NCBI GenBank assembly: GCA_043228905.1
Contig: JBHGNT010000006.1
Coordinates: 4,650,001 to 4,714,000 of the forward strand
Length of the DNA stretch: 64,000 nt
Origin: Azolla caroliniana
Lineage: Eukaryota; Plantae; Polypodiophyta
Direction of reading: 5' to 3'
The position numbers were made by a program, and so were the translations under genes. Shown here piece by piece: positions 4,039 through 32,585 of this stretch (its first letter is position 1; each line of letters begins with the position of its first letter). The notes beneath the pieces were generated by a model, which saw only the letters and a list, made by a program, of their open reading frames with translations, was not told the DNA's origin and did not search any database.

Positions 4039-4043
4039 GAAAG

Positions 4044-4537: not shown

Positions 4538-7500
4538 CCGTGTCCGCGTTCCACCTTCCCATTCGCCTACGGATTGTACGTCGTGGTGAGCGAGAGTTTA
4601 ACTCCTAGTCGATCAAAGAACTCCTCAGCCTCTTGTGCGTCCAATTCTCCGCGGTCGGCTATGAGCTTTCCTACGCACCCGTATCGGCATACCACTTCTT
4701 CGATCAGAAATTAGCACACGGACACGGTCGTTTTGTTCGGCAATGCTCGACCTTCCTCCTGGTTCGTCAGGTCCTCTCGAGCCAGCACCAGGTATCGCAT
4801 CTGCCCTATCCCCATCGGCATCGTAACCTGATCCACCATCCACTTGAAGTGGATGGTCGGAGGGTAGGTCGGGTGGAGCTCGTCCCGATGTCGGACTATG
4901 GAGTGCATCTGACAGCTTTCGCAAGCTGTCACGAACCGATGCACATCCCGGTATAGTCCCGGCCACCAATACTTCCCCTTTAGCTTCTCGAATGTGGCCC
5001 ACGTCCCGTGGTGCCCAACGCAAGGACTTTTGTGGTACGCCACCAACAATTCCTCTTGTTCCTCTTTCTTCGCCACAACCCGGAGCGGAATGTCTTTTCT
5101 CTTCTTCGGGTGTTTCCAAATGCACCCATCTCGTAGGAAGAATCAGTACGCTTTCTTCCGAATCCGGCTGGTCTCTTCCTTCGTCCATGCCACGTCCGGT
5201 GTCATTGTCTTCAGGAACCCGCCGATCTGGAGCCACTCCCCGCCGTACATGCTCTCGTCGAACTTGTTAAGCGTTGGAGTGCTCCCCTTGTTGTTACGTA
5301 AGCCGACTTCTTCATCCTCCGAAACCATGTCGTCCTCATCATTGAATCTCGCCCTTGAAAGCATGTCGGCGATGGCGTTGTCTTTTCTGGAAATGTGTCG
5401 TATTTTTGGATTCAGGGACTTGATGTACGCTATCCACCTGAGCATTGCTAGGTCCGGTGTCGCGTATCCGGAAACCATACCAAGAATCGGCAGGTAGTCC
5501 GTCTCAATTATCACCTCCGTCCCGATCAGGTAGTCTTTGTCGGCCTTGACCGCCGAAACGATACCCTAGAGTTCGCGTTTAACCTATGGGTACCCTCGTT
5601 GTCATTCACTGAGGACTTTCGCAACAAACCGAATGGGGAATCTCGTGCCGTTCTCATCCTCCTGGTTGATCACTCATCCGATTCCGGTCGGACTCGTGTC
5701 TACGGTCACGTAAATCGGAATGTCTTTACTGTAGACCGCTTTTCGGAGTGCCGGTGCCGCAACAAGTGCTTCTTTCATTTTCCGAACTGACTTCGTATGC
5801 TCCTCTCTCCACTCAAATTTATTCCCTTTCTTCAGCAGTCCATAGAACGGCTCCGCGACGTGGGCATAATGCGGGATCCATATATGGTAGAACGCGCATG
5901 CTCCTAAGAATCTCCTAACTTCCGTGACCGAATTGCAGTCGCTCTTCATCGCGGAGATGGCCTCTACCTTGGCTGGCGACGGTTTCCGACCAAATGGCCC
6001 GCATAGGTGTCCGACGACCATGATCTCTGATTGCCCGAAGGCCGATTTTTCCCCGGAGATGGTGAGCCTTGTGCCTTCTAGTCTTCGCAACACCTTCTCG
6101 CAGTCATCGACGTGGTCCGCCACGAATTTCCGGCATCCGTCCGGTCAGATTGTCTTGTCCTTATCCTCCATCGGGCATCCTTTGATCGGGATGTCTTCTA
6201 AGAACGACATGGTGACGTCCGGGATACAATCCCTTAGGACCTTGTTCATCGCGTTCACCATGTGGGCTACCGAGTTAGTCCCTCCTTGCGGAAGGGTACA
6301 CATCTGTAATAGGCCGAGAGGAGTCTGCATCGTCGTAATGTCCCTGCTCTCCATGGCTAGTTCGAACTGATCGTACCCCGAGTACATATCACCGACTGAG
6401 TGAATCGACCTTCCGGGAAGGCCTCCATGAACTCTTCGATGGTCAGTCCGATTCCTGTGTTCCGAATGGTCACTTTGTTGACCGGCTACAGGTCTTGAAT
6501 AAAGCGCAACGTGCCGTTCTTCTTTGGCACAATAAACCACCGATTAGAATACAGGGCACTCGACGGTTCGAGGATGCCCATATCCACCTTCTGTTTCAGC
6601 AGCTCCATCAGCTTTGGGATGTGAGCTCTGGGTACTGGAATCGGTTTGAGATTCCGCGGTACATGCGGTACCGTGAAGATCACCATCGGTTCCACAATCG
6701 TCGGGTCTACGCACCCGATCTTCTCCGGCGAGAATGCGAAGGCCTTTTCGTGCCTCCCGAGCATTCTCCGAAACCGGTTCTCCTCCGTCGGCAATAGAAA
6801 GCCACCCCCCCCTCCCTTAGCGTTATGTCGGTGAATCAGTGACCTATGCCAGCCGGATCTCGTAAACTTGGGTCTGACGCGACCCCTTTAATCCGTAACT
6901 CGTTGCCCTCCGGCAAGGGTGCCACGATTGGCCTCACCTTCCGGTCCGATCCGACTTGAGTCCTCTACTGAAGTCGGCGATGACTTCGTACATCTTTTCT
7001 GTACATACCGGAATCGTTTGGTCTCCACTAAGGCCCTCTCCGAACACCTCCCGTAGCTTCCCCAAGGTGTTGTCGAAAGAGACTGCCTCCACGGCTCCGT
7101 TGATTTCCTCTCCGGGGCTGAGGACTCCGCATGCCCTGAGTCGCTCCTCTGTCCGCTTCTTCTCCCGGCCAACGACCCTAAACTTCCTAACTATGTTACA
7201 AGTTCTTCTGCCTACTATACACGTGTGGGGTTTTTCCGGAGTGTCCGGACTATCGCGGCCCCACGCCTTGATAGCCCTCTCTAAAAATCCCCTCGGCTTT
7301 CGCCGCCGAGGGTCTCTCGGTTTCGTTCATGGTTCGGTTGTACCATCAGAAACTGGACGGAGTGACGCTCGTCTTGTGTCTTTACTCGCGCGTACGCCGA
7401 CACATTGTCCAACACCTTCGTCTCCATTCGTGCCGCTGTGATGTACGGTTCCCCGAGTATCATTGGATGCGAGGATGTCTCATGCACAAAGAAGTGCTGA

Positions 7501-8156
7501 TCGATCTCGACATCACCGATTTTCACTCGTACATTTGGGTAGGGTCCGTGTAGCTCCTCCATGGCGCGCATCGCCGCTCGTATTTTCCACCCATGCTTGC
7601 TGTTGATCACCCACTTGCCCATCTTGTAAAAGTCGATGGACATCAAGTTGATTTCCGAACCGTGGTCTAGCCTAATGTAGCCTTGAATAGTGGCTTTCCG
7701 CCAACTCGTCTCCCAGGGCCATGTCTTCTAGGTGCGTCATTCGCACCTCCACCGGCTCCGGCTCTGTTGAAAGCCTCTTCCGCTTCACCAAGTCTACGAT
7801 GGAGTCGTGGAACTCCTTTTTGGCGATATTGAGCACCTCCCTCAGCGACAACTCCATTTTGCTGTCGAGGATTCGTTCCTCCAAGACCTTTCGTAGGTCC
7901 ATGGTCCTCTCGATCTTGGTGCTCAACCGGTAACCGGCCTTCTTGGCCTTGTCCGATGCGCCGGACGCACCAACGTCATTTTGCCTCTGCCTGAACCGGG
8001 TCTCATACCGTTGCGAGGGTCCAGCCCCTCCGGTCTTTCCCGCATGCTTCTCTTCTACCAGAACCTCGTAGTTCTGCCACACGGCTTTTATAAAACCCGT
8101 CTTTTCTTCGACCGGGTCACTCCACCTGGTTACTTGTTGGACCCGTCTTTCCGCGC
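4538..8156 (-). pseudogene. Ty3/gypsy element A internal region: gag C-terminus, protease, RT, RNase H, integrase N-half (degenerate)
   Basis: LDHGSEIN protease (7656-7667). RT motifs NRWFIVPKKNGTLRFIQDL, GYDQF, TLPQGGTNS. RNase H VDTSPTGIG. Integrase HHCC (HKSPCVGHHG...CESC). Many frameshifts and stops. Both ends cut by later LTR insertions. Confidence 0.92.
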
Positions 8157-8527
8157 TGTCGTGAAGAAAACCGTCCCCAGGCGCAAACTGTGTATAGCGT
8201 GCGTGAACCGGCCCTTGCACGTGGGCACGCCCCTTGTTGTATAGTAGATAGGTAGGCACAAAAGTCAAATCCTAGGTAGCAATATTCTATAGGGGGAATC
8301 AAGGAGTATCTCTGTCCGAAAGGACAGAGAATTAATGTGATGTGAACGGGTGAAACGGCCTCCCTCCTTGAGCTATAAAAGAGAGGGAGACGGGGAGAGA
8401 AGGGATCGCGCGCTAGAGGGGACAAAGTGCTGCTGGACTAGGACTGAGCTCTTCTTCTGTGTCGTTCTCTATAGCTTTCTTTTGCGCAGGTTCTCGAGAG
8501 GATGATTCTGCTCCATGGAACACCCGT
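8157..8527 (+). mobile_element. Ty3/gypsy LTR, truncated by insertion of the next LTR
   Basis: Starts TGTCGTGAAGAAAACCGTCC. Homologous to 67-243/4044-4250. Confidence 0.85.
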
Positions 8528-9192: not shown

Positions 9193-9955
9193 TATTGTGA
9201 AGAATTTCGGCCAGAGGCGGAAACCGGGAACATTGGCTACATCGGTGGGGTGCAACGTGTGTACGCACCCATGTACATTTAGTGTGAATATCGAGGGCGC
9301 CTTTATGGCGCCGAAGAGTAGTCAAGTCGGGACAGACGATCCCATGTAAGTCGGGATTTGTCCTACATTGTAACGCATCCCTTTCCTTGTTCTATAAAAG
9401 GATGGGAATGCCCTTTGTGAAAGGGTTGCCCATTTTGCATTAGAGGGTATATCGTTAGGTTTAGAGTTAGTTCCTTCTTCTTCTTCTTCTCCTTCGTGTT
9501 CGCTGAGGGTTTGCTTCAGCTCATCTCCTTCGCAAGACCCCGCTCGGCGCGACGAGCCCATGAGCTCCCCGACGGTGGCTTGGCAACTGACGACTACTGT
9601 AACCTACCTTGGTCTAGCTCGAAGCCGGGAATGTATTCTTCTATTTATATATATACATTTGTGTCTGTCTGTATATTCGCGTCTCTGTCGGTGTCGGGTG
9701 CTTCCCCTTTTCTGCGTTTCCTGTACATAAGGGCGTGAGTCGTGTCTGCATGTTTGTGTATGTGTGTGTGTGTGCGTGAGTCGGTGTTAAGCGCGTGCTC
9801 CCTCTCTTTCTCTCTCTCCCTTCGGTCGCTTTCGGTGTTCTTCTGGGGTCCCCCGGAAACGGTGAAGCACGACTTCCTACGCTCCGTCACTCCCTGGTCC
9901 AAGACCCCCGTGGTCCCACCTTTCTCTACGCACGCGCGTAACAACGCGACATATT

Positions 9956-9972
9956 TGGTGAACCCGACGTGA
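9956..9972 (+). promoter_or_regulatory. primer-binding site complementary to tRNA-Trp 3' end
   Basis: TGGTGAACCCGACGTGA, the reverse complement of UCACGUCGGGUUCACCA (plant cytosolic tRNA-Trp 3' end, from memory). Lies 4 nt after the LTR end. Confidence 0.85.
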
Positions 9973-9988
9973 AAGGCGGCAAGGGAGG

Positions 9989-12053: not shown

Positions 12054-13070
12054 AGGGCGGAACGGAGTCCGGTCCTACGGGATCCCCACACTTAACCAGA
12101 GACTCTGGCAGTTCGGCCAACGTGGCAACATGAGACTGAGAGAGAAGGGTGGTGGCGGCGGGAAACGGGTCCCGACTATGCGAAAGACACGAGGAGAGTC
12201 CGGGAGGGACTCAAACAAAAGACACCCGAATTACGGCAGGCATAGAAACGGAGTCCGGTCCTATGGGACCCTCACACCGATCCAAAGACCCCGGCTGATC
12301 GGCCAACACGGCAACGTAAGACCGATGGAGAAGGACGGTGGTGGCAGGGAACGAGACCCGACAACACGAGGTAGTGGATAGGGAGCCGGTAAGACGGGCG
12401 GACGAAGTGCAAAACCCTCACCGGCCAGTCACGGTTTCGGAAGGAGCCGGTAGGGGCAAACACGGGGAGGTGTGTCTGGCCGAAAAGGCACACCTTGGAC
12501 AGAACAAGAGCCTCGCAAGTGGCCATCGCGGGCCGGATCGAAGCGTGACTACGGGACGGTGTTCGGTGCGGGCGGGGCCGAACGAGGTGACAAGTGCCTA
12601 GTGGACTGCACAGGGTCGGAGTCAGGGGATGGCAAGAGAGGCCAGAGGAGGATCCTCCACACTCGCTTCGTAGATCTCGGTAGCTCCGTCGAAGTAGCGA
12701 AGACTGACACGGCAAGCCGGGATGACAAGCTGGTGGGGGCGAGGGGACGACGGCAAGCGGAAGACTCACGACCTATTGCGGCAGCACGAAGACGGGAAGG
12801 GCCAAGCGGGCTACTACGGGGTGTTCCTCGGATGCAAAGGACACCAGTATGCGGGTGAGCGGCGATGCACGATCTAGCCGGAAAGGGGGCCGACAAGGAG
12901 TGCAACACATGCAGTGCCAAACAACGGACGAGGGTATGCGGCACACGGAGGTGCCGGAGTGGAAAGGCAAGCGTGGAAATAGGTTGCGCGGTTCGGAGGT
13001 AGCGCGGAGAAGGCCGGAAAGGGGATCCTCCACACCGTTCTGGAGACCATGGCGGTTCGAGCCGACGCGG

Positions 13071-13510: not shown

Positions 13511-15442
13511 CGGAGAGCCGTACCTGGGAGGAGTTCGAAGACCGACTCCTAGAGAAATACGGGCTGGACGACGCTGTCAAGGTATCCCTCGTGGATGCGT
13601 GGAATGAGGCGGGACCTCGGGGGTCCTGTACCGAAGAACAAGAGAGAAAAGGAGTGGGGAACAGACCCAAAAGGTGCGAGCGTAGATTCACAGGGACACG
13701 GCCCTTCGACACAGAGAGACACGAATGTATGTAGAAATATATATAAACAAGACAAACAACAAGCACGAAGTCGGTTACAACCGAACAGGCCAGCGAACAG
13801 ATGCCGATGCCTGTTCGTAAACGTACAGAAAGGAAGAAGTAGGTTGGAGGTGCTGCCGGAAGCACTCGGGCATTCCTCAGAGCAGCGCGAGCCTCCCAAA
13901 ACCTGCACAGAAAGAAGCTATGGAGTTTGGAAGAGAGAGAAGCCTTCGGCCCACAATCCGACAACACTTCGTCCTCCCTTACTTTTCGATCCCCTCTCCC
14001 CTCCTTGTCTCCCTCCTTTTATAGGCAAGGGAGGAGCCGTTTCCTATTAACTTCCTACCTACCGAGGATCTTCTATGTACAACATAAGGCGCACGTGTAT
14101 GAAGAGCCGGTTCCTACGCTCCGGTGCACCAATTCCGCTTGTGGACAGTTTTCTTCACGACAACGCGCTCCGGCTTTCGAAAAGGGACTTCATGGAATGG
14201 GTGGAGTCCCCCGACAAGGGAAGAAACGCGTCGGCACTCCTTCGGGAGTTCGAAGAATGCTTTGCGCGCCTTTCGACGCTTGACCGAACCGTTCTGGATA
14301 CGAGCCGGGTCCTACTGTTCGTCAGCTCGGTGGACGAGCGGGACCGGGATCAAGTCGGCTCCTTGCTGGAAACCGAAGACGGGCTGACGACCGACTAGGC
14401 TGCGGTTAAGAGAGTCTGTGGCCGTTTCGACAAACGGCGGGAATGGGCTGACAACGGGGCGGCCGGTGCGGGCTCTGTCACAGCAAGGAGGCTTGAACTG
14501 GCACCGCAAGGGCGAAGGGAAGAAACCCGGGAATGGCTCGAAACCGGTCCGGCTTCGACCGGCATGGTCAATGGCTCGTCCGGAGGAGCAGCGGTGGAGG
14601 AGTTGACGCGGGCGATAAAGGATCTCCAGATCGCCCAGACTCGAAGGGAAGGCGGCGAACCGGCTCGTGACCGACGGCCGGCAGTAGGGAACAGGTGCAT
14701 GTGGTGCGACGAGGTCGGCCACATTCGGAAGGATTGCGGCGATTTCGCAGAGGCGTTGAGGAATCGGGTGGTGTACCTGTGGGAAAGCCGGGTGCACGCC
14801 GGCGACACCAGAAGGGCCCTAAACCGAAACGACGGGCGAGGAGGTATGAAGAGACTGATGGAAGAAGCAGCGGCCCGACACGTGGAGGCCATCCACTACT
14901 CGGCGTCAGCCGGCATTCGGGTCGGGGGCAGCGAGGCCCGAAAGGAGAGCAAAGAAGGATTCTGGTCGGCAATGCTAGAAGGCCTCGCCGGTGCACGGTT
15001 GAGGAAAGACGAAGCGGACCGCGCCGAGAGACGGGTCCGGGAAGTAACCGGGTGGAGCGACCCGATCGAGGAGAAGACGGGCTTCGTAGAAGCCGCCTGC
15101 CGGAACTACGAGGCTCTGGTAGAAGACAAACGAGTGGGGAAAGCCGGAGCGGCCCAGCCCTCACAATGGTACGAGACCCGATTCGGGCAACGACGGAACG
15201 ATGCCGGCGGGTCCAGCGCGCAAGATAACCCCAGGAAGGAAATAGAAAGGACTACGGACCTACGAAAGGTCCTAGAAGAACGGATCCTCGAAGCAAAGTG
15301 GAGTTGTCATTACGGGAGGTGCTAGGGATCGCCAAGAAGGAGTTCCACGACTCCATTGTGGACTTGGTGAAACGAAAGAGGCTGTCGACGGAGACGGAAC
15401 CGGAAAGACCGGTGGAGGTGCGGACGACGCACATCGACGACA
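13511..15442 (+). pseudogene. gypsy gag fragment (interrupted by solo LTR)
   Basis: ESRTWEEFEDRLLEKYGLDD|ALRLSKRDFMEW..., zinc knuckle CMWCDEVGHIRKDC, ...VEVRTTHIDD. Confidence 0.88.
13575..14162 (-). mobile_element. solo LTR (Ty3/gypsy) with 4-bp TSD ACGC
   Basis: TG...CA termini. ACGC at 13571-13574 and 14163-14166. Removing the LTR plus one ACGC restores gag GAC GAC GCG CTC CGG (DDALR). Confidence 0.93.
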
Positions 15443-18400
15443 ATCCGACAATCCGACAACACTTCGTCCTCCCTTACTTTTCGATCCCCTCTCCCCTCCT
15501 TGTCTCCCTCCTTTTATAGGCAAGGGAGGAGCCATTTCCTATTAACTTCCTACCTACCGAGGATCTTCTATGTACAACATAAGGCGCACGTGTATGAAGA
15601 GCCAGTTCCTACGCTCCGGTGCACCGATTCCGCTTGTGGACGGTTTTCTTCACGACATCCGCCCCCACCTAACCGCGCATTCACCGGCATGCGCCAAATT
15701 GAGTTGGGACGGAGAAAACCGGTCCAGCCTTTATTCCCCGCCCGTCGGTTCTTCTTCGGTTTCGGATCGTTCGTCGTCCCGGTCCAGGTTATCCGGATCC
15801 AGCTCGTCGTCGTGACGCTTCTTGAACGCTTTGATCCGCTTCCCAGCTACCGGTATCGCCATTCTCGTGTCGTCGAGCTCCGCCAGATGGTACGTCCCGT
15901 TGTCGTTGGCGCTTTGTACCACGTAAGGCCCGAACCACCTTCTTGCGAACTTCCGTGTTGCTCGGTGCTGGTTGTCGAGGCTGCTGTCGTAGACTAGCAC
16001 CAAGTCGCCTTCCTCGATCTTCTTCGGTCGAACCGGGCTTTGTTCCTCATCCTTGCCACCCGAAGCTTTTCCGTAGCTCGCTCTACGTCCTCCGGTCTTC
16101 GCTCGAGCTGCCGTATGCGCGCCGTCAATAGTTCCTCCCGGCTCATCTCGTCTCTCCAGTCCACGGTTGCCCATGAGGAGATCGTATGTTCCATTGGCAT
16201 GATCGGCTTCTGCCCAAACATGAGCTCTGCCGGCATGAATCCGGTTACCGAACTATGCGTAGTTCGGTCCGCCCACAACGCGTAAGGCAACAGCCGCGGC
16301 CAGTTCCCGACTTGACCTCCGCATGCCCGAACTAACGCCTTGACAATCGGTCCGTGTCCGCGCTCCACCTTCCCATTCGCCTCCGGATTGTACGCAGTGG
16401 TAAGCGAGAGCTTGACTCCTAGCCGGTCGAACAACTCCTCGGCCTCTTCGGCGTCCAACTCCCCGCGATCAGCCACGATCTTCCCGACGCACCCATACCG
16501 GCATATCACGTCCTCGATCAGGAACCGACATACGGCCGCGGTCGTTTTGTTCTGAAGGGCTCGACCTTCCACCTGGTTCGTCAGATCTTCCCGAGCCAGG
16601 ACCAGATACCGCATCTGTCCTACGCATCGTCACCAGATCTACCATCCATTTGAAGTGGATGGTCGGAGGGTACGTAGGGTGAAGCTCGTCCCGATGCCGG
16701 ACTATGGAGTGCATCTGACAGCTCTCGCAAGTTGTCACGAACCGATGCACGTCCTAGTACAGTCCCGGCCACCAGTACTTCCCCTTTATCTTCTCGAACG
16801 TGGCCCACGTTCCACGGTGTCCGGCCCAAGGGCTGTCGTGGTAGCCCGTCAGCAGCTCCTCCTGTTCTTCCTTCATCGCCACCACCCGGAGCAGGACGTC
16901 GTTCCTCTTCTTCGGGTGCTTCCATAAGTATCCGTCCCGGAGAAAGAATCGGTAAGATTTCTTCCGGATCCGGTTGGCCTCGTCCTTCGTCCACGACGCA
17001 TCCGGCGTCATCGTCCTCAAAAATCCACCGATCTGGAGCCACTCGCCGTCGTACTTGCTCTCGTCGAAGTTGTTAAGTGTCGGAGTGCTCGTCCCATCAG
17101 TCGTCACGTACGCTGCCTCGAAGAAGTCCACGTCGACTTCTTCGTCCTCCGAAACCATGCCGCCCTCGTCATCAAACCTTGCCCTCGAAAGCATGTCGGC
17201 CATGGCGTTGTCCTTTCCGGAAATGTGCCGTATTTCCGGGTCCAGGGACTTGATGTACGCTATCCACCTGAGCATCGCCAGGTCCGGTGTCGCGCATCCG
17301 GAAACCATGCCGAGAATTGGCAGGCAATCCGTCTTGATAATCATTTCTATCCCGATCAGGTAGTCTTTGTTGGCTTTTACTGCCGAAACGATACCCCAGA
17401 GTTCGCGTTTAACCTGGGCGTACCCTCGCTGTCGCTCACTGAGGACCTTCGCGCCGAATCGGATCGGGAACCGAATGCCGTCCTCGTCTTCTTGGTTGAC
17501 GACCCATCCGATCCCGGTCGGACTCGTATCCACCGTTATGTATACCGAGGTACCCTTCTCGTAGACAGCCTTCCAGAGCGCTGGTGCTGCCGCAAGAGCT
17601 TCCTTCAGCTTCCGGACCGACTCCGTGTGCTCGTCTCGCCACTTGAATTTTCGCCCTTTCTTCAGCAACCCGTATAGCGGCTCCGCAATGTGGGCGTAAT
17701 GCGGGATCCATATGTGGTAGAACGCGCACGCCCCCAGGAACCTCCGAACTTCCGTAACCGAGCTACAGTCGGTCTTCATCGCGGAGATGGCTTCTACCTT
17801 TGCCAGAGACGGCTTCCGGCCATATGGTCCACATAGGTGTCCGACCACCAGGATTTCCGATTGTCCGAAGGCCGATTTCTCCCCGGAGAAGGTGAGCCTC
17901 GCATCCTCTAGCCTTTGTAGCACCTTCTCGCAGTCGTCGATGTGTGTCGCCACGAATCGCCGGCATCCGTCCGGCCCGACTGTCTCGTCCTTCTCCTCCA
18001 CCGGGCACCCCTTGATCGGGATGTCGTCTAGAAACGGCATGGTGATGTCCGGGATGCAATCCCTCAGTACCTTGTTCATTGCATTCACCATGTGGGCTAC
18101 CGAGTTGGTCCCTCCTTGTGGCAAGGTACACATTCGCACCAGGCCGAGGGGAGTTCGCATTGTCGTAATGTCTCTGCTCTCCACGGCTAGCTGGAACTGG
18201 TCGTACCCCGAGTACAGATCACCGACCGAGTAAATCGACCTTCCGACGAAGGCCTCTGCGAACTCGTCTATGGTCGGTCCAATTCCTGCGTTCCAAATGG
18301 TCACTCTGTTGACCGGCTGCAGGTCCTGAATGAAGCGCAATGTTCCGTTTTTCTTTGGTACGGTAAACCATCGGTTCGAGTATTGGGCACTCGACGGTTC

Positions 18401-20255: not shown

Positions 20256-20831
20256 GACAAGCGTTCTTCAAACTCCCAGAGGAGCACCGGCGCGTTTCTC
20301 CCCTTTTCGGGGGTCTCCACCCATTCCATGAAGTCCCTCTTTGATAGCCGAAGCGCATCATCAAGCCCGTATTTCTCAAGGAGCCGACCTTCAAATTCTT
20401 CCTAGGTCCGGCTCTCAACCCGTACCTCGAGCACCTCCGCATGGATGCTTGGCATTGCCACCCGAGGGAATCTGGCCAGTCGCCTATCCTCCGGAATGTC
20501 CCTCATCACCATTTCGGCTCGGTAGGCCTCCAAATAGCTCGTGGCGTCCTTTCCACCGAACCAGCCTATCGTGCCGACGATCGCTTCAATGGCCCTATCG
20601 AGGGCGCCTGCACCCTCGCGCACACTCACTATCCGATCCACAACTGAAGGCATGGTTTCTGCAAGCTCCGATCCCCTCATCTTTGTATTCCTCTGCCACC
20701 AATTCACATCGGGTTCACCAAATATGTCGCGTCGTTATGCGCGTGCGTATAGAACGAGGCAGGACCACGTGGGTCTTGGACCGAGGAATATCCGATGAAG
20801 AGTAGGAGCAAGGAAGACAACGGTCGTGCTT

Positions 20832-20868
<37 letters not shown>

Positions 20869-21418: not shown

Positions 21419-24400
21419 ACGTTCTTGGATAAATCCCGTCTATGAATCATGCACAATCTCTAGAAGAAAGGGTTGTAATCTCAAAGCCAATAACTTAGCA
21501 TAGATTTTGTAAATTGTATTCAATAAAGTGATGGGCCGCCAACCCCTTACCTCATTCGTAAGAACATCACCTTTCGGAATGAGGCATGTTAATCCCTGTT
21601 TCCACTTTTGTGGCATAATACCTGTATTGAACATTTCTTGAAATGCTGCCAGTATATCATCGGCAATCAAATCCCAATATGTAATGAAAAAATCTCTTCC
21701 CATTCCATCTACTCCCGGGGACACATCTGGCCCAACACCTTTAATAGCTTGTAATATTTCAAAGGAGGAAAATGGACGAAGAAGCTGAAGAGGGATTTGA
21801 GATGTTACCTAAACTGTAGTAGCAACCCATACTTTTTGGCGCATTTGTAGAGTTTCAACACTTGGAGTATATGCTGATAACAACGACTCATAATAAATAG
21901 CTACAATATTCCTCATTTCATCTCTATCCATTGTAACTGTGCCATCATATCTTTTCAACTGTATAATCTGAATTTTATTTCTTTTAGGCATAACATGTTG
22001 GAATTTTTTTTTTGACATGGTGTCACCTTTTGCACACCATCTTGTTGCAGATGCTCAAAGAAAGAATTGAACATGTTTTTGCTGCAAAGAAGAAATAAGC
22101 ATTGTAGCATTTTGTAATTCACAATGAATATATTGAGAATGAGGTTGTTTTTCTTGCAAAATTTGAAGAGAAGCCAAAACTCTTTTAGCATTCAACAAAT
22201 TTCTGGTGTAACTACTTTGTTTTACCTAAGTTAACTTGTTGTATAAAGAAGTTGGAAACTGCGATAAGAGCATTCTGTAATTTTTGACAATTAGAATCCC
22301 CTATAGCCATTCTCCAAAGTGACAAAACTGTATTCTGCTAATTCATATTGTCAACAATAAACCTTGGCACATACAATCGAGAAATAGAAGTATGGTTGTC
22401 CATACAGAATTTGAGCATAATCGGGGCATGATTTGAGAACAAAGTGCCCAATATAATACCCACATATCCTCCACAATCCCAAAACAAAGAATCTACATAA
22501 AACCTATCTATTCTCAACAAATTGAGAGCGGAACTTCTTCGATTGGAACGTGAGTATAACAAGGAATCGGGCATGCGAGAGAAGGTAGGAATATGCCACA
22601 AATCAGTAACTTCATATTTGAAAATTAATTTCTCCCACTCACGCAATTCCAAACCCAAGATAGTAGCAAAAGATCTGCCTAATCTATCAATAGGGCTTTC
22701 AATCATGTTCCAATCACCACACATACACCAATTTTGTGCCACAGGAAGATCTTGCAATAACTTATTCCACAATTGAATTCTTCCAGTAGCAGAATTCGGA
22801 GCATATATATTCAAAAAACCAATCAATTTTCCAGGGATAAGAATAAGCATATACTGAACTCTACCACCAAACAAGACTCCTTTAGCTTGTACATGAGACT
22901 GCCATTGCATTCTAAGTGCGATACAAAGGCCACCTTGAGTACCAGAGGGTCCAAAAGCCGGAACCCATTCATAAATCCAATTACCACGTAGTAAATTCCT
23001 ATTCGATGCTATCCTTCGTGAATTAAGATGGTGTTCTTGAAAGCATAGCATATCAAGTCGACCTATAGAAGGTAAAGATAATTCTTGATTCATGTAACAT
23101 CTTACTCTATTACAACGACTCACACCTAACCCTTGAAGGTTCCAAGATAAAATATTAAAATAATCCATATCAAGATTGAGATGGAGAAGACCTCTTATCA
23201 GTCAAAACCACTTGTCTCTCCTTTTGAGACGAGGTTACTGCTCTTGTTATTCTTTTTTCCACACGAGAATCCTTGAATAAAACATGATGGTCTTTATATA
23301 CCCTATTTTTGCTATTCCCAAGTGCTTCTATAGTATCCTTTGCAGATGTAAAAACATACGGTGATTGCCCGACCCCTGTCTGCAAAACAGTTGAATATGA
23401 TCGAGCATCTACCTTTGGATCATTATGTTGAAATGATGTTATCATTTTCTGAACTGACGCTTTAACTTTTGTCGGAACTTGTTCTGGCATTGGGTCGATG
23501 ACTGGAACAATTTCCAAAGAGGAAATAGAAATCGGCATAACTACATCTTTTTGCAAAGCGTCCAACTACATTCATGCAATACTTAGGGAGGAGGAATGGC
23601 TAGAATGATCTCCAAAGATGGAGCAGAAACCGACATTCCTAAATCTTGCCTCAAAGTGTCCATACTACATTCCGATAGTGCAGATTGAGGGAAATTGGAG
23701 CAAATCATATCCACACATTTTCCCTTACCCACTTTATCTAATGATGTATCGAAACCCTTTGGCAACAATGAACTGACAACACTATTATTTTGCTTATTCA
23801 TAGCTACAATAGGCTTCCCATGGGCAGTCAAACAAGAAAAACATTGGTTGGGCAAACCGAAGTAAAGCACTTTCTGAATTTTTTTAAACATATTACCTTG
23901 CAGTTTTGGAAAGCAAATCCAATTAGGTAACATTGCATCTTTTTTGCAAAGTATCTTGACAGACGGAGCTCCTCCTTTTTCTACAATATCCCTAAATGTA
24001 GATGAGTTAACATGTAAAACTCTACCAATTGTTGCCTCGATTTTGTGAAGAACCTCCCTCCATTCCTTATCTAAGCCTGGAAAAACAACAGTACACGTAA
24101 AGTATCCCGTTGCCTCCACCTGTAGGACTGCCGTATCAAAACCATGGGTCCATGGGAAAAAAAGAACCCATGCACTTGAGATGTCTATGAAGTGAATGGA
24201 AAGGAGATTGTAAAAAGAAGAATGATATTCAAACTCCAATTGATAGCAACATCGGCCCATCAATTGTATATCAATAATCTTATCTAGTTTCGCCTTTAAC
24301 GCTGCTTGGAGAAGATGACGAAGATCTCCTCTACTCGGTCATTTTCCCAAAACTTGGGCAACAACCGAGCAGTGCTCGAATCATTTAACTTCATTGAGGA

Positions 24401-24818
24401 CAATGAGCTCATCTTCCGGTGCCAATTGGACATCAATAGTACCGTCAATCGTAGGAGAAGCATGAGCCGATTCATTGGATCACTCCTTGGGCGTTGACGA
24501 AGACGGTGTATACATAAACTCTTTTCTTGTGATGAGTTTGTAAGATTCCCTATTTCCTAATTAATCGTTCTCTTTTGCCTTCCAATTCCTTCTCCTTACT
24601 TTTCCCCAACCACCACCACCACTAATTTCATTTGCGTCTACTTCTCACATGAGTTGTGATGGATAATAGAGTTAATCTGGACAGAAATCAAACCTGTTGG
24701 AAGAGATATTGCAACGTAGCAGAACGAATTTGCAGCCCACTAGTTGCTTTCCTTCCTCTGTTGTGAAGACCGTGAAGCTCAGAGAAAGGAGAGAATCGCC
24801 GAATAAGGTCACGTGGGC
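21419..24818 (-). mobile_element. L1-clade LINE (ORF1 plus ORF2 endonuclease and start of RT), degenerate
   Basis: ORF1 remnants with DUF4283-like text and CFSC knuckle (23170 to about 24500). APE endonuclease ILSWNLQGL/FQEHH/NIYAPN/GDWN/RIDRFY/SNHAPI (22338-23168). RT start SPGVDG...WRPITLLNTIYKIYAK (21440-21724). The 5' boundary is approximate. Confidence 0.9.
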
Positions 24819-26229
24819 TGATCCGCAACGAACTTTCTACAACCTTCCTTATCTTTCGATTCATCTTTCTCCTCATCCGAACATCCTTTTATCGGAATAT
24901 CATCCAAGAATGGCATCGTGATGTCCGGAATGCAATCCTTCAAGACTTTATTCATGGCATTCACCATATGAGCCACCGAGCTCGTTGCGCCTTGGCGTAA
25001 GGTACACATCCGCACAAGCCCGATCGGAGTCCTCATGGTTGTAATGTCTTGACTGTCGATCGCCAATTGGAATTGGTCATATTCGGAGTAGAGATCGCCA
25101 ATGGAGTAGATGAACCGGCCCGCAAACGCTTCGGCAAATTCGTCCACGCTTGGACCGATTCCGACATTTCGAATTGTCACCTTGTTGACGGGTTGAAGAT
25201 CTTGGATGAATCGCAATGATCCATTCTTCTTCGGCACCGTGAACCACCTATTGGAGTAAGGAGCATTCGACGGTTCTAGAATTCCCATACTCACCTTCTC
25301 CTTTAAGAGCTCGATCAGCTTCGGAAGGTGTGCTCTCGAAACCGGTATCGGTTTCAAATTCCAAGGCACATGAGGCACCGTGAAGATCACCATTGGCTCT
25401 ATAACCTTTGGGTCGGCGCATCTGATTTCTCGTGGGAAGAATGCGAAAGCCTTCCCATGTCTCTCAAGCATATCGCAAAACATTCGCTCCTCTTTAGGGA
25501 GAAGGAAATCCTCCTTTCCAACTCGTAGCTTCCCTTTCGTCTCTTTGGTGAAGACATGACCTATCTTCTTCGGATCTCTTAAGCTTGGATCGTTAGCGAC
25601 TTCCTTCATCTTTTGCCAACTATCTTCCGGTAACGGAACCACAACTGGCTTGATCTTCTTATCCACCGTTTCATATTTCGTGTTGATGTCAGCTTCCTTC
25701 ATCGAGATGCCACGATGGTATTCATCGATGATAGCGTACATGTTGACAGAGTTAACCAAAATCACGCGTTGGTTGTGAAGATAGCTCAAGTCCACAACGT
25801 CCTCGATTTCGCCAATGGTGTCGTTAAATGAGGCTTCTTCCATAATATGAGTCACGAACTCTCCTTCTTCTATTATGTTCTCTTCTTTCAGCATCTTCTC
25901 AAATTCTTGTATCCAGCGCTTGTGCTTCTTGTCGGGTAGTACTAGTTTACATGCGCCACTAGGTGTGACACATGTTGCTTCTCCTTGCAATCCACGCACT
26001 CTTCTTTCTTGTGGGGTCTTGTGATTGCTCGGACTATTTGTGTCCCATGCTTCAATAGTCCGCTCTAAAAATCCGAGGATTCGCCTCCGAGACTATCTCG
26101 ATTCCTTTCATGATTGGCTCGCACCATTAGGAATTGGACCGATCTTTGGTTGTCAAGACTCTTTCTTCGTGCGAAGGCTGCTCCATTATCGAACACTTTG
26201 GTCTCCATCCGAGATGATGTGATATAAGG

Positions 26230-27957
26230 TTACCCTAGGATGACAGGATGCGACGCCGATTCTTGTACGAAGAAGTGTTGATCCATCTCCACATCCCCGA
26301 TCGTGACTTTGACATTGGGACAAGCTCCGTACAAATCCTCCGTAGACTTTGTCGCCGCGCGAATCTTCCATCCGTGGTTTGTATTGATTGGCCATCTTCT
26401 TTTTTTGTAGAAGTCGGTTGACATGAGGTTGATCTCCGAGCCGTGGTCGATCAAGGCTACCACGGTCTCTTTCTTCTCCCCGATCTTCACCGGCGTCTCC
26501 GTTGTCGCTCGTGCCCAATGGGGTCGAGTGTAGTGGCTGTCCACCATATCTTCATCGATTTCGTCTCTTGCCATCGTTATGGCATTTGTTTTTACTTTTT
26601 GCGGCTTCTCTTCTTCCTCGTCCAATTGTTGTCTCTTTCTCTTTACAAGGTCCACGATCGTGTCATGGAACTCCTTCTTCGTAATGCCAAGCAATTCCCT
26701 CAAGGACAAAGTTACATGGCTATCAAGAACTCGTTCTTCGAGAATCTTCTTTAGGTCCGTCGTCTGCTCTATGTCCGACCTTAGCTTATAGGTAGGTATA
26801 GTCCTTGTCCTCCGAGCGGGGTCTTTGACACCAACCTTCACGGGCCGAACCGTTTCTTCAACTCGTATGCCCGGCTCCCCTTTTCGGCTTGATTCTCGTT
26901 CCTCCGTTTGTAAAGGTCGACTCGTCTCCGCATCGTCCTTCTTTTTCGCGTTCCTTGTTTCATGTCTTTTTGATGGGCCTTGCTCTTCTATTCTCTTTCT
27001 CTTTTCTTCGATGAACACCTCGTGGTTGTCGCACATCACCTCTGCGAGTATGGTGTTGTCGTCCACCGGATCCGACCACCCGGTTATGCTTTGCACGCTT
27101 CGGTCCGCAAGCTCTACCTCGTTCGATGTGACTTTTCCCTTCTTCTCATATTCGAGAACGAAAGTCCAAAACTTTGCTCCCGCTCTAGCAGCTTCAATCT
27201 TGTCTTTCCCGACTCTTATTCCGGCCGACGCAGCATAGTGCATCGCATCCACATGAATCGCATCGGCATCCTCCATAGATTTCTTCATTCCTCCTCTTCC
27301 GAAATTCACCCGTAGGGGTCTTCTAGTCTCGCTTGAGCAGATCATGTTGTCCTCTATGTATACAATATTTTGTCGAATCGCCTCTCGAAGGCTCGCACAA
27401 TCCCTTCTCATGTGGTCCATGCTATCGCACCACACGCATCTAAAGGGTTCTTTTCCTTTAGGGCCCCGACGATTCATGTTGGCTAGCGTGACCTTCTCGA
27501 ACTTCTTTGCTAGCTCTTCAATGATGTCGTCATCAATCTTCTTTTCTTCCACGTTACTTTGTCTTAGCGGCTCAGCTACTTTTGGCGGTCTTGCTTTCTC
27601 CGTGGTAGTCGGTCCCGTCAAGTCGGTGTCATCAACCCATTGGCGACGCTTGTCGAGCCTATTGCATGCCCGCTTCACCGCGATCCAGTCCGCTACGAGC
27701 CCATTTGCTTGGGTATCATCTTCGAGAAGAGTCCCCAACTCCCGTCTATCCTTTATGTCCACGGCCTTCAAGAAGTACAAAGTCTTGTCCTCTTCAAGCA
27801 ACACTTGGTCCATATTGGGGAGACGACTAAACATCTGGTCGAATTCGTCGTACACCCTCGAGACGCTCATCTTCTTATTCTTCTTCTCTATCCACTTCAT
27901 CAGGGCATGTCGAGTCATCCTCGTTGAGTCTTCAGTCACGAACTCCGCTAGTATCAT
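26230..27957 (-). CDS. gypsy Gag-protease (element E), 575-aa intact segment
   Basis: Zinc knuckle, WARATTETPVKIG, ALIDHGSEINLM. Confidence 0.85.
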   Translation of the reverse strand: MILAEFVTEDSTRMTRHALMKWIEKKNKKMSVSRVYDEFDQMFSRLPNMDQVLLEEDKTLYFLKAVDIKDRRELGTLLEDDTQANGLVADWIAVKRACNRLDKRRQWVDDTDLTGPTTTEKARPPKVAEPLRQSNVEEKKIDDDIIEELAKKFEKVTLANMNRRGPKGKEPFRCVWCDSMDHMRRDCASLREAIRQNIVYIEDNMICSSETRRPLRVNFGRGGMKKSMEDADAIHVDAMHYAASAGIRVGKDKIEAARAGAKFWTFVLEYEKKGKVTSNEVELADRSVQSITGWSDPVDDNTILAEVMCDNHEVFIEEKRKRIEEQGPSKRHETRNAKKKDDAETSRPLQTEERESSRKGEPGIRVEETVRPVKVGVKDPARRTRTIPTYKLRSDIEQTTDLKKILEERVLDSHVTLSLRELLGITKKEFHDTIVDLVKRKRQQLDEEEEKPQKVKTNAITMARDEIDEDMVDSHYTRPHWARATTETPVKIGEKKETVVALIDHGSEINLMSTDFYKKRRWPINTNHGWKIRAATKSTEDLYGACPNVKVTIGDVEMDQHFFVQESASHPVILG

Positions 27958-28789
27958 TTTCTTGAACTCGGACCATGTTGTCTTACCTTCTTGAAGCTCG
28001 ATGACGCGTCTTTAGATGTTGTTGGCGACAACTCTCTTGACGCTTGCAATTTGACGTGCCTCGGACACGTCCCTCTGATTCATCTTCCTTCTATATGCAT
28101 CAAGGAACTTCGTAACGTTCCTTCCATCGAATTGGCCCTTGAGCTCTACGACACGATCGACAGCCTTCTCCACGCTCGCGTCGTTGTCCCGAGATCTCAT
28201 CATTTGCTCGACGATTAGCATCATCCTTTCGAGCTCTCTTGCTTGGTTGCTTGAGGACGCCATCTCCAAGTATTAATCTCGACTTTATCCTTCCTACCGC
28301 CTCTTTCACGTCGGGTTCACCACTTAATTATGTTGTGAAGATCCGTCACTACGCGTGGATCGTGAGGCGGAACCGCCGGGGTTCTGGACCGGAAGGATTC
28401 AAAGTCGGTACAAGCTTTGGGGCAAGCTTTAGCGAGAAAGTACTTAAGATAGATTGGGAAAGAGAGAAGTTGAGATTACACGATTGAGAAAGATTGATTG
28501 AACTTTTAACTTTAGATTTAAGAAATAAGTTACACGATCAATTTGATAACGAATTTCCTCTTCTTAATTTCATAAAAAAAACGTGTTTTTTCTCCTCCCC
28601 CTTCCTTCTTTTATAGATGCTCCCATGCATATGATGCATGTGAGGGTACAAGACATGCATAAATTGCATGTTTGCCATTTGGCGCTTATGTATTACATGT
28701 GGTGCATGATAACCATGTCACTCATTTTAGCTCTCATGTATGAGAATTTACATGTAAAAGTACAATGATAGAAATATAATTTCAACTCA

Positions 28790-28905
28790 ATAGCATGGCT
28801 TAATGGTAAGCCAATTGACTCCTAACTTGGAGGTGCAAGGTTTGAATCCTTACTTGCCCTCCTTGTATATGTATATATGTATATATATTTATATATTTAT
28901 TTATC
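28790..28905 (+). mobile_element. tRNA-derived SINE-like segment inside the LTR of element E
   Basis: A-box-like TGGCTTAATGG (28796-28806), B-box-like GGTTTGAATCC (28839-28849), then a (TA)n tail. Confidence 0.55.
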
Positions 28906-29461
28906 TAGTCGCCCGACGCCGTTTCGTCGGATGTCGTCGGTTACCGGTGCCTCGCCGATTGCCGCCGCCGGATGCCATCGGTTACCAATGCCTTGCCGGA
29001 TGCCGTCGTCTCACCGGCAGCCAGTTACCGGATTGTCGTCGGATGTCGCCAGATCACCAGCTCCATTGCCGGTCCGGTTTTGGTTGGCCAAAACCCTTTA
29101 CGAATAGTTAGCCCACCTCCACTCTTAGTTCAAGTTACCTTGACCTCTCTATGCTCCACACATAGACACAAAGATAATATCTTTTGCTCTACCTTATATA
29201 TGATGAGAGCCGTATTTGTCGTGCCTATGTGGGATATCTCACAATTTTCTCTTTTCCTTTCACAAACTTTATACCCTCATATCTTGACATTTAGTTGTTT
29301 GTTTCTCTTGTAATAAAGTGCATTCGAAACCTCCATCATTTTGTACTTAGATATTAAATTTATTTTAAATGTTATCTTCACAATTATTGTATTATGTGAT
29401 TCATACTCGATTTCGTACATTTTATGGGATTTTCACACTATTGCCGAAAATCTTCACGACA

Positions 29462-31556
29462 CCGTGAGGAGGCGTGGCCCGGAGCGAACACGTACGAAGA
29501 TGAGGATGCGAGGCCCAAAACGTGCATGTACGAGAAGACCGACGGAGAGGTCGGGAGCGGCAAAGAGGAGAGAGTCGGGAACCGACCCGACCGGAAGATG
29601 AACCGGTCGATAATCCGACACGACCGAAAGACGAGACGGAAGAAGATTGGAGCGGGGTCCGATCAACCGGGCCCGAACCGAAGAAAAGCCAGCAAGGCCG
29701 GATTTGTGCGGACAAACATGTACCGGCCGGTTACGATTACGAAAGGGAGCCGACCAAACCGGAACTCGATCGGCCGAGACCGATCCGGGCGAAGGCTAAG
29801 TCGGCATGATTGGAGGTCGAGGCGAACGTGCCACAACACCCGGTGGGAGCCGGTGAGCGCGAGAAGGAGGCTAACCAGGCACGGTGATTACGGCTTGGCG
29901 GAAGACCGAGAGCAAGAGGAACCCTCCACACCTATTCTTGAGACTTCGGCGGTTGCGGATCAACATAAGACCAAAGAGACGGCGGGTGGCGGCGAGGAGT
30001 CGGAGACCGGAACGGACGAGGCTACCGGAACGGGTACCCGGTGCGTGAAGACGGACGAGCACGGCCTAGACGGCAAGCCGGAGTCGGAAGGGGCTACGGC
30101 AACAAAGGACGAAGAGACCGACGCGGAGGTCGGGTCTACGACGCATGAGGCGCGTAATACGAAGCATGCACTACAGCCAGCGAAGGGCCAAGAAGTAAGC
30201 ATGCACCCGGAAGAGCACAACGAGTGACCGGCAACGGCAGACCGGTCGAGCCTTTGCGAGGAATGCACGCGGCGAGAGACAGAGTGGTGAGGTGCCAATA
30301 TCGGCGGATGATCGGCGAGCATGGAAGGTTATGTCTTAAGAACCGAAGGAGGTGCGTGGAGAGCAACGGGCTACGCGTCGGGAAGAGGAAGCATGGCGTC
30401 CCGGAAGGCATGCGAGGCCAAGCGGGCCAAGAGGACCAGAGTCGGGATGAAGCGGTAACGGGAGTCGCGAAGGACACTGACATGGTGGTCGGGATGACGG
30501 TACACTCTACGGTGAGAGAGCACGGCGAGCGAGGGAGAAGCAAGGAGCGTGTAATGGGGTCACGTAAGGACCGAAGAACGAGCGCGCATTCGATGGATGA
30601 CAACGACGCACGGAAAGTGCCTACGGAAGCCGAGCGCAGAACGAAGGGAGTCAGTACGAGGTGTTCGGGGCGAGGAGAAGGTCGAGCCGGAGGTGGAACA
30701 CACGCGATACGCGAGGAGCGGCACCCGACGAGTAATCGAAGTAATCGGGGATCTAACCGGAGGACATGCGCGGTGAGCGAAGGAAGGGAGACCGGATCGG
30801 CAACAGTGTTCGGGATGGTCGGTCGAAGAAGGAGCATGCGCTGGACGTGGTGAATTGGATGGAGTCGGTGGGTCGGGGCCGGTAAGGAGCCGACAAGACG
30901 GATCGGTGCCGGCAAGGGACCGGCAAGACGGTTGGGTGCCGGTAAGGCGAAAGACCCGGTTGATCACCGTCGCCGAAATCTCTCACCCTTTTCCTTTCTT
31001 GGCACATACTAGTGGATGTGCGGTTTGGTGGGGGTGGATGTCGTGAAGATTTTCGGCTATAGTGTGAAACCGGGGTGGAATGGGCAAATCGGTGGTGTGC
31101 AACATGTGCACGTGTATACTAGGAAATAGTGTGTAGAAAGAAGAGGGGAATTTTATCCCACATTGTAAGGTCCCTCCCTCCTTGGGCTATAAAAGGAAGG
31201 GAGGGGTCACTTATGAGGGGTTGCCTATTTTGAGGGAGAAAGGCATACCACTTAGGTCGAGGGTTTCCTATTCGGTTTTAGGATTTCGGTTAGGGTTTTC
31301 TTCTTGGGTTTTCCTTTAGGGTTTTTCTCATAGTCGTTTGGTGCGGCCATGGCGGCCACCATTGTAAAGCGTTTATGTTTCCTTAAGCTAACTTGTTGAG
31401 CATCTTGCCCCGTCTATTCTATGTTATTGTCTTATTCTTTCTCACCTCCTCTTGAGCTAAGCTTCCATTTTGTGTCTTATTCTTTCTCCTCTACTCCCTA
31501 GTCCAAGGCCCCCATGGTCCCGCCCCTTCCACACCCACGCACGTAACAACACGACA
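29462..31556 (+). mobile_element. non-autonomous gypsy derivative F: non-coding internal region, PPT, 3' LTR (31039-31556)
   Basis: Carries the element-B repeat unit at about 29918-30000. PPT GGTTTGGTGGGGGTGGA. LTR TGTCGTGAAG...AACAACACGACA. Confidence 0.85.
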
Positions 31557-32585
31557 ATGGCATAGAAATTAATAACCTACCCCCCCCTTAAGTACAACCA
31601 TGGAACTGATCAAACTCTAATATCTCATGAAGACCGTAATAAAGTGATACGCCAAGAAATATGGCAAATTTACACTCGATATAAATGGATCACCCGACGA
31701 GAGCCACTCCCATCTAAAATGTTGTACTATAAGGAACACTTCTTGCACTTCTCTCAGTTAGGTTTTATTACATGACCAAGATATCTAGATACATTCTTAT
31801 CAAATGCACTAAGGGTGACCATTGGTCAGGCTAATAGAGTCCCTAGAGAGGAAAGGCTATGTAGGTTGTGCCACATAGAGATAGAGGATGATTATCACTT
31901 CACATGCAAGTGCCCAACTTATGCCGAGATACGAGTGGAATACCAAGACATATCAGGACCCTCTCCCACCCTCTCCAAACTATTAGATACCCCGGATGTA
32001 AAGAGACTAGGTAGGTATATCTTAGAGCTAAAACAACATAGGGAGAATAAATTACAAAGTGTTAACCATAACCCTTTTACTATTCATCAACTTGTAACTA
32101 GTGTAATTTTTCAGGAACAAGGGGAGACGATGAATGTGGATACACTTACACCACTCGGCCTCTCTCTTGAGGAAGCCGAAATGCAAAGAACAACCAAACG
32201 CCCTCGGATGTTGGGCTTCAAAACAAGTCAACACGGAGTAGAAAAGATTAAGAAGATAAGGGAACGTGAGCTACGACGACTAGAAGCTATGGTTGGGGTA
32301 CCTTTTACATTGGGACCACGGGCCACATCCACATTGAAACCCTTAGACCTCCCGCTTCTCTTCGAGAGACTTGGATGGAAATGAAATTAGGCCTAGTATA
32401 ACATCATTTTCATTGTAGAACATGTTTTTTATATAGAACAAGTTGGTTATTTTAATAGAACTATTTAGCTTAAAACTCTATTTTTATTTTTATTTTTTAC
32501 TTTCGACGAATGGGTAAATATCCCATTTTTTGTTGTAAACCATTTGTCTCATGGGCCAATTTTGGCCTTAGAAGACGTTAATATT

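What the first reader, a model, noticed from the sequence alone, without database searches (positions are those of the whole stretch)
4538..31560. Gypsy family integrates at 4-bp N-CG-N targets (CpG-centred TSD)
The solo LTR at 13575-14162 shows the TSD is 4 bp (ACGC on both sides), not the 5 bp usual for plant LTR elements and seen for the copia here. The 4 bp flanking the other insertion junctions are CCGT (4538), GCGC (8153), CCGT (8524), ACGC (9189), GCGG (13067), ACGT (21419, inside an AT-rich, CpG-poor LINE), CCGT (29462) and ATGG (31557). So 8 of 9 insertions have a central CG, and the ninth is the expected deamination product of ACGG. Inference: the integrase is CpG-specific, possibly methyl-CpG-sensitive, despite having no chromodomain. 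That would steer new copies into CpG-rich older copies, explain the deep nesting and spare the AT-rich gene space.
Basis: partly seen in the sequence, partly recalled or inferred. Interest (0 to 1): 0.75.

Follow-up and report, generated by a model that had tools for sequence, protein, structure and literature searches.

The report
Plant retrotransposon that inserts at CpG
This plant jumping gene inserts almost only at CG base pairs and duplicates four bases around them, a real habit but one already published for the moss Phygy lineage, to which this family likely belongs; I found no sign that it senses DNA methylation.

Summary
Real, but already published. All nine 4-mers sit where stated; only ACGC/ACGC (13571-4, 14163-6) is a two-sided duplication. 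Genome-wide the bias is strong: central CG at 1636 of 1902 LTR starts without G at -3, 1342 of 1632 in a second subfamily and 383 of 421 LTR ends, against 3.8% background. 22 of 28 resolved elements have exact 4-bp TSDs, none 5-bp. CA/TG exceptions mostly pair with CG (12 of 15), so they are later deamination. A copia control gives 5 bp, no CG in 11 TSDs. Neumann 2019 lists Phygy as 4 bp, NCGN, tRNA-Trp primer, no extra domain. This family meets all four; a tree with a named Phygy sequence was not possible. New detail: the motif is cVCGBg, and TA centres are nearly absent. CpG density alone predicts flank CpG content and repeat share; self-nesting is 23% against 12% expected. I found no sign of methyl-CpG sensing. 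The scan noted NCGN before in a fungal genome (e1-10582392).

The parts
67..4537 (+). 3' LTR of a Phygy-like element (PPT ends at 66), split by a copia insertion
   Evidence: its 5' LTR upstream is truncated
244..4037 (+). Copia element used as internal control; 5-bp TSD GAAAG (239-243 / 4038-4042), LTRs 99.7% identical
4538..4541 (+). CCGT, right flank of the 3' LTR, inside the integrase of an older copy; unpaired
   Evidence: the homologous copy near 16350 also reads CCGT
4538..8156 (-). Fragment of an older Phygy-like copy (gag to integrase, many stops), target of two insertions
8153..8156 (+). GCGC, left flank of the LTR starting at 8157; unpaired
8524..8527 (+). CCGT, left flank of the LTR starting at 8528, inside the previous LTR; unpaired
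   Evidence: an insertion at what looks like the homologous LTR site has a paired CCGT/CCGT TSD in L045
9189..9192 (+). ACGC, left flank of the LTR 9193-9951; unpaired
9193..9973 (+). 5' LTR (9193-9951, decayed start TATTGTG) and tRNA-Trp primer-binding site (9956-9973)
13067..13070 (+). GCGG, left flank of a 5' LTR (13071-13510) that is joined by deletion to gag; unpaired
13571..13574 (+). ACGC, left copy of the only two-sided TSD
13575..14162 (-). Solo LTR, TG...CA, inserted in gag of another copy
14163..14166 (+). ACGC, right copy of the TSD
15445..20080 (-). Partial 3' LTR (15445-15657), PPT, and gag-pol of a copy: DUF4100 gag, RT, RH, integrase; no chromodomain hit
20703..21418 (-). 5' LTR (20725-21418) with tRNA-Trp primer-binding site (20703-20720)
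21419..21422 (+). ACGT, outer flank of that 5' LTR inside a CpG-poor LINE fragment (62 CG in 3282 bases); unpaired
24809..29461 (-). Divergent Phygy-like copy: 5' LTR 28331-29461, tRNA-Trp PBS, gag with DUF4100, part of RT
29462..29465 (+). CCGT, outer flank of that 5' LTR; unpaired
31039..31556 (+). 3' LTR preceded by a PPT
31557..31560 (+). ATGG, right flank; likely a deaminated ACGG, unpaired
   Evidence: by analogy

Best explanation
This is a non-chromovirus Ty3/gypsy family, likely of the Phygy lineage, whose copies sit at 4-bp duplications centred on CG, likely because the integrase itself cuts 4 bases apart around a CG and reads the palindromic target cVCGBg (best C-ACGT-G) from base sequence rather than from methylation. 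Shown: 4-bp TSD, about 89% central CG and about 98% CG+CA+TG at true outer ends, avoidance of TCG/CGA, tRNA-Trp primer site, PPT, no chromodomain or extra RNase H hit. Inferred: CA/TG centres arise after insertion when the methylated TSD cytosine deaminates, so the starting specificity was near-absolute. Inferred: because the family is about twice as CpG-rich as the rest of the genome, the sequence preference passively biases insertions into CpG-rich repeats, its own older copies included, and away from CpG-poor DNA.
For: Central CG: 1636 of 1902 LTR starts without G at -3, obtained by subtraction from 3346 (one search agrees, 1235 with V at -10). Removing the PPT-derived AGA rows (46 of 100 listed) gives about 89%. 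Second subfamily 1342 of 1632; 3' ends 383 of 421; background 3.83%. 22 of 28 resolved pairs are exact 4-bp, 4 differ by one base, 2 do not match, none is 5-bp (one search finds no 5- or 6-bp match in 46 pairs). 12 of 15 CA/TG flanks pair with CG and none has the same non-CG 4-mer on both sides. TA centre in 1 of 100 listed W rows though TA is 6.0% of the background. First TSD base T in 3 of 80 (26 expected), last base A in 2 of 80 (26.5 expected), C just outside in 34 of 80 (17 expected). Copia control: 11 of 13 pairs 5-bp, 0 of 11 contain CG. Flank CpG density 0.061 vs 0.054 for random CpGs and 0.038 for random bases; repeat share 40 of 48 vs 238 of 300 and 187 of 319. Phygy table row matches. 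Integrase-intrinsic target reading is published for ZAM (PMC2527525 abstract) and PFV/HIV (PMC4422553 abstract).
Against: No biochemical test: that the integrase alone sets the motif is inferred. Self-nesting (11 of 48, 23%) exceeds the random-CpG estimate of 12.3% (p = 0.03), though not its upper bound of 22.5% (p = 0.53), so some extra chromatin effect or selection is possible. The unbiased flanks all come from the first 13 Mb of contig C1, while the background spans 22 contigs. No Physcomitrium-named sequence came up among the listed homologues, so Phygy membership rests on features. Resolved copies of the main subfamily (mostly 6.6-7.3 kb) are shorter than the Phygy range of 7.7-10 kb.
Confidence: 0.75

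Rival explanations
1. The integrase, or a host cofactor it binds, prefers methylated CpG, which would give chromodomain-free targeting to silenced DNA.
For: 83% of flanks are repeats and 23% lie in the family itself, above the 12.3% point estimate. TSD cytosines deaminate after insertion, so the sites end up methylated. Phygy is reported enriched at centromeres in a liverwort (PMC12885004 passages).
Against: Random CpGs are already 79% in repeats, and flank CpG density is close to the random-CpG null. Pfam finds no methyl-binding, chromo or extra domain in gag or pol at E up to 1. Deamination of the TSD shows methylation after insertion, not before. CG-centred targeting is also published for Drosophila ZAM, a host recalled from memory to have little CpG methylation.
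Confidence: 0.12
2. The bias is indirect: a 4-bp stagger needs a sharp bend at a pyrimidine-purine step, and CG is simply the most used flexible step.
For: Central YR enrichment rises as TSD length falls in retroviruses (PMC4422553 abstract). The nearest solved integrase by sequence is PFV integrase (E 2e-18). The preferred C-ACGT-G is alternating Y/R.
Against: TA, CA and TG are also YR steps and make up 19.5% of the background against 3.8% for CG. Yet TA centres are nearly absent and CA/TG centres resolve mostly to CG. Bendability may contribute but cannot be the whole cause.
Confidence: 0.1
3. Artefact: the CG belongs to mis-drawn LTR ends, or reflects CpG-rich local DNA or copying of a few insertions.
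For: Eight of nine window junctions are unpaired; the nest is CG-rich (7.2%).
Against: Paired TSDs vary between copies and match left to right. The bias holds at both ends and in two subfamilies across thousands of sites. The copia control in the same genome shows none.
Confidence: 0.01

Closest known systems
Phygy clade, non-chromovirus Ty3/gypsy of Physcomitrella patens (Neumann et al. 2019, PMC6317226; passages, section 13 and supplement MOESM5 read)
   Same: 4-bp TSD with NCGN (186 elements, 100% 4 bp), tRNA-Trp primer (81%), no extra polyprotein domain, no extra ORFs, pol order RT-RH-INT.
   Different: Here the host is a vascular plant, likely a fern, not a moss. Resolved main-subfamily copies are mostly 6.6-7.3 kb against 7.7-10 kb. 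I resolve a finer motif (cVCGBg) that the text I read does not give. Tree membership is untested.
Ginger1 DNA transposons (Bao et al. 2010, PMC2836005; passages read)
   Same: Gypsy-like integrase, 4-bp TSD centred on CG (CCGG 75%, CCGT/ACGG 24%), TGT termini.
   Different: Cut-and-paste DNA transposons with TIRs and no RT; narrower motif. Here ACGT leads (22 of 80) and CCGG is 8 of 80.
ZAM of Drosophila melanogaster (Faye et al. 2008, PMC2527525; abstract and one passage read)
   Same: LTR element whose integrase itself binds and nicks a CG-rich target (CGCGCg).
   Different: Insect retrovirus-like element with a longer fixed consensus; a different lineage and host.
Selgy and TatI (same table)
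   Same: 4-bp TSDs; TatI also uses tRNA-Trp.
   Different: Selgy uses tRNA-Ala and has no listed motif; TatI carries an extra aRH domain, not found here.
Fungal Ylt1-like Gypsy elements (PMC2864245; passages read)
   Same: Non-chromovirus Gypsy lineage. A resemblance of this RT/RH and of DUF4100 gag to fungal elements is recalled, not shown by a call.
   Different: No Ylt1 sequence was compared and the passages give no TSD motif; this is a lead only.

Membership tests
Ty3/gypsy LTR retrotransposon | TG...CA LTRs, PBS, PPT, pol order RT-RH-INT | tested here: met
Phygy | 4-bp TSD | tested here: met
   22 of 28 exact 4-bp, none 5-bp
Phygy | NCGN target | tested here: met
   82-91% central CG in three genome-wide counts
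Phygy | PBS complementary to tRNA-Trp | tested here: met
   PBS matches the 3' end of host genes called tRNA-Trp(CCA) in 6 of 6 loci scanned, of 63 matches
Phygy | No chromodomain, no additional RNase H | tested here: met
   Pfam at E up to 1 on pol and gag of one copy: a single RH region, no chromo hit; the structure prediction did not return
Phygy | Length 7.7-10 kb, internal region almost all coding | tested here: inconclusive
   Main subfamily mostly 6.6-7.3 kb with gag and pol filling the interior; one divergent copy 8.1 kb, short derivatives about 5 kb. The paper calls size a weak criterion
Phygy | RT-RH-INT phylogeny groups with P. patens Phygy references (the paper's primary criterion) | not testable with these tools
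   REXdb FASTA and element table too large to read; no Physcomitrium-named hit among the listed rows. The tree of 27 hits has only Riccia and Adiantum labels
Chromovirus (Tcn1, Galadriel, Reina, Tekay, CRM) | C-terminal chromodomain; tRNA-Met or self-priming | tested here: not met
Tat (TatI) | additional aRH domain | tested here: not met
Selgy | tRNA-Ala PBS, about 5 kb | tested here: not met
Ginger1 | DNA transposon with TIRs, no RT | tested here: not met
   RT, RH and LTRs present

The most novel reading that the evidence does not exclude
The integrase of this lineage reads the methyl group on the central CpG directly, giving a chromodomain-free route into silenced DNA that is shared by an old clade across mosses, liverworts and ferns.
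Probability: 0.12. Interest if true: 0.75.

Novelty: new member of a known kind. Interest (0 to 1): 0.25.

Why it matters
As it stands, it extends the Phygy-type NCGN habit from a moss to a vascular plant with thousands of insertions. It refines the motif (cVCGBg, TCG/CGA and TA avoided) and shows the starting specificity was near-absolute. That is useful for annotation, since the family is missed by any search that requires 5-bp TSDs, and it offers a rare sequence-specific plant integrase for study. Only if the enzyme proved methylation-sensitive would it be a real surprise: a DNA-level, reader-free way for a transposon to find heterochromatin.

Tried and rejected
1) Looked for the partner TSD of 4538 in 20 kb upstream: the 5' LTR is there but its start is lost. 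2) Looked for a Physcomitrium-named relative: none among the 120 of 181 and 120 of 1160 rows listed or in 10 clusters. Named hits were Riccia (about 65-69% identity at best over RT-RH) and Adiantum. 3) A tree of 27 RT-RH rows could not test Phygy membership without a reference. 4) Metagenome contigs (73 loci) look like collapsed assemblies. Three 5' LTR starts upstream of a PBS had CG-centred flanks (L271, L274, L298) and one motif match did not (L278); none was paired, so I did not count them. 5) Insertion hotspots in the family: 2 coincident sites among 18 of 135 flanks mapped to one copy with 320 VCGB sites; too few to call hotspots. 6) AlphaFold of the integrase had not finished after 9 polls, so there is no model or fold search. 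7) The paper search for 'NCGN' alone returned mostly kidney disease. GingerRoot has a 6-bp TSD with no motif and was rejected as a parallel. 8) Eight earlier notes on this genome concern PPT-less Gypsy elements; this family has a normal PPT, so they describe something else. Rows dropped before counts: PPT-preceded starts (G at -3, 99 of 100 listed GGA); 1 PPT row from the 49 unbiased flanks; the regions where no pair could be resolved (28 pairs from 38 regions); 10 of 20 regions's non-CG set with no resolved end.
Full report
WHAT IS IN THE WINDOW. Bases 1-31560 are a stack of nested, mostly truncated LTR retrotransposons; the rest is AT-rich (CG dinucleotide 7.2% in 4538-31560, 1.3% beyond). 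The window lies on contig C6 of a 523-Mb genome. Dirigent and PPR genes and Adiantum among the named relatives suggest a vascular plant, likely a fern (inference). The Gypsy copies have pol order RT-RH-INT and a DUF4100 gag. Their LTRs start TGTCGTG and end CGACA or similar, with a PPT before the 3' LTR and a PBS after the 5' LTR. The LTRs fall into several subfamilies about 72-84% alike.

THE OBSERVATION. All nine 4-mers are at the stated places against LTR termini. Only the solo LTR 13575-14162 has both sides: ACGC/ACGC, with non-matching 5-mers and the gag frame in register with a 4-base duplication. The other eight are single flanks; for 4538 the partner is lost upstream. Eight of nine central CG has p = 3.6e-8 at 9% background.

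GENOME-WIDE TEST. One LTR-start pattern has 3346 matches. By the third base upstream, 1444 have G (99 of the 100 listed read GGA, the PPT end), 172 have A/T (of 100 listed: 47 TG, 46 AGA, 3 AAA, 4 other) and 94 have C not followed by G (85 CA, 9 CT). The 12 AGA loci fetched were all PPTs. That leaves 1636 CG by subtraction, consistent with 1235 counted directly under an extra constraint. So CG is 1636 of 1902 (86%) without correction, about 89% after removing PPT rows, and CG+CA+TG is about 98%. A second subfamily gives 1342 of 1632 (82%). An independent 3'-end pattern gives 383 of 421 (91%). Background CG in 40 spaced 10-kb stretches is 3.83%.

TSD LENGTH. From 38 fetched regions (18 picked from the unfiltered list, 20 from the CG-filtered list, so these test length, not CG rate), 28 LTR pairs resolved: 22 exact 4-bp, 4 with one base changed, 2 unmatched, none 5-bp. 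The window's copia family is the control: 11 of 13 pairs have 5-bp TSDs and none of the 11 contains CG.

THE EXCEPTIONS. Of 15 insertions with a CA- or TG-centred left flank and a resolved other side, 12 have CG there, 2 have the opposite deamination product and 1 has TG on both sides with a different first base. None has an identical non-CG 4-mer twice. One CT-centred case had an unrelated partner flank.

FINER MOTIF. Among 80 CG-centred flanks, the first TSD base is A40 C17 G20 T3 (expected 17, 24, 13, 26) and the last is A2 C10 G25 T43 (expected 27, 13, 24, 17). The base just outside is C in 34 (expected 17); in 24 exact pairs it is C on the left in 14 and G on the right in 14. The target is thus the palindrome cVCGBg, best C-ACGT-G. 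TA centres are nearly absent (1 of 100 listed) although TA is 6% of the background, so flexibility of a pyrimidine-purine step (PMC4422553, abstract) cannot be the whole cause.

NESTING AND METHYLATION. The family covers 6.9% of background bases (95% bootstrap 2.9-12.0) and holds 12.3% of CpGs (3.9-22.5); its CpG density is 6.9% against 3.6% elsewhere. Of 48 unbiased flanks, 11 (23%) lie in the family: p = 0.0003 against bases, 0.03 against the CpG point estimate, 0.53 against its upper bound. Flank CpG density is 0.061 against 0.054 for random CpGs, 0.038 for random bases and 0.036 for copia flanks. Flanks are repetitive in 40 of 48 (83%), random CpGs in 238 of 300 (79%), random bases in 187 of 319 (59%) and copia flanks in 11 of 16. 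CpG choice therefore explains the tilt toward CpG-rich repeats and about half of the self-nesting, with no clear need for a methylation read-out. This proxy is weak: non-repeat CpGs may be methylated too, selection acts after insertion, and the flanks come from one part of contig C1.

COMPARISON WITH WHAT IS KNOWN. Neumann et al. 2019 (PMC6317226; passages, section 13 and supplement MOESM5 read) state that Phygy elements prefer NCGN. They tabulate 186 elements with 4-bp TSD (100%), tRNA-Trp PBS (81%), 7.7-10 kb and no extra domain. Here the PBS matches the 3' end of host tRNA-Trp(CCA) genes, Pfam finds no chromodomain or second RNase H, and main copies are mostly 6.6-7.3 kb. The paper's primary criterion is phylogeny. 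Its element table and FASTA supplements could not be read and bear directly on membership; no Physcomitrium-named relative was listed. So this works like Phygy (shown) and is likely a member (about 85%, inferred). Jedlicka et al. 2019 (PMC6911290, passages) also report 4-bp TSDs for Phygy, GC-rich centres in 4-bp TSDs, and Phygy nesting into Tcn1. Phygy-class domains are reported in a liverwort (PMC12885004, passages). Related habits: Ginger1 (PMC2836005, passages) and ZAM (PMC2527525, abstract and one passage). Passages of PMC6839031, PMC2864245, PMC13469084, PMC8282616 and PMC7466625 added nothing on the motif. My nine searches showed no report of NCGN targeting in a fern, of the extended motif, or of a methylation test, but the library lacks most subscription papers.

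VERDICT. The host range, the finer motif and the deamination analysis are modest additions. Methyl-CpG sensing remains possible but unsupported. Interest 0.25; novel case probability 0.12, interest 0.75 if true.

Noticed in passing
window 244-4037: Young copia (LTRs 99.7% identical, 5-bp TSD GAAAG) only 3.8 kb long; integrase is followed almost at once by the RNase H end, so most of RT appears deleted. Its LTR start has 2125 matches in the genome.
   Followed up: partly
G000:C8:17796786-17823371, C16:4989495-5105657, C5:10105608-10112201: Clusters of tRNA-Trp-like 3' ends, on C8 at about 1.2-kb spacing; 63 matches genome-wide. Possibly tandem tRNA gene arrays; only one locus from a cluster was scanned.
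   Followed up: partly
window 9952-13066 and 29462-31038: Interiors of the second LTR subfamily are long G/A-rich stretches with degenerate repeats of about 120 bp and no pol hit; paired copies elsewhere are about 5 kb, likely non-autonomous derivatives that keep the NCGN target.
   Followed up: partly
window 14163-15442 and 19700-20080; 13950-14162 and 15445-15657: Two inverted gag copies (90%) and a partial 3' LTR 97.7% identical to the solo LTR meet at a deletion junction near 15443.
   Followed up: no
window 21419-24700 (-) and 31776-32384 (+): LINE fragment with an endonuclease domain, and a separate ORF with a Cys/His-rich motif resembling a LINE C-terminus (resemblance recalled).
   Followed up: no
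window 37036-37629, 40475-41995, 58766-59440: Dirigent-like gene, PPR gene with a weak E-motif hit, and a copia gag fragment in the AT-rich half.
   Followed up: no
window 33782-34251, 45610-45889, 46424-46643, 61819-62212: Tandem repeats with periods 256, 3/33/36, 57/67 and 50 bases.
   Followed up: no
L023 and L044; L226 and L236: Two pairs of independent-looking insertions map to the same CG of the family's gag/leader region; too few to call hotspots.
   Followed up: partly
L034 (G000:C1:7869157-7877700): Element with 100% identical LTRs but unmatched flanks (CGGC vs ACGA), suggesting recombination between copies or a local rearrangement.
   Followed up: no
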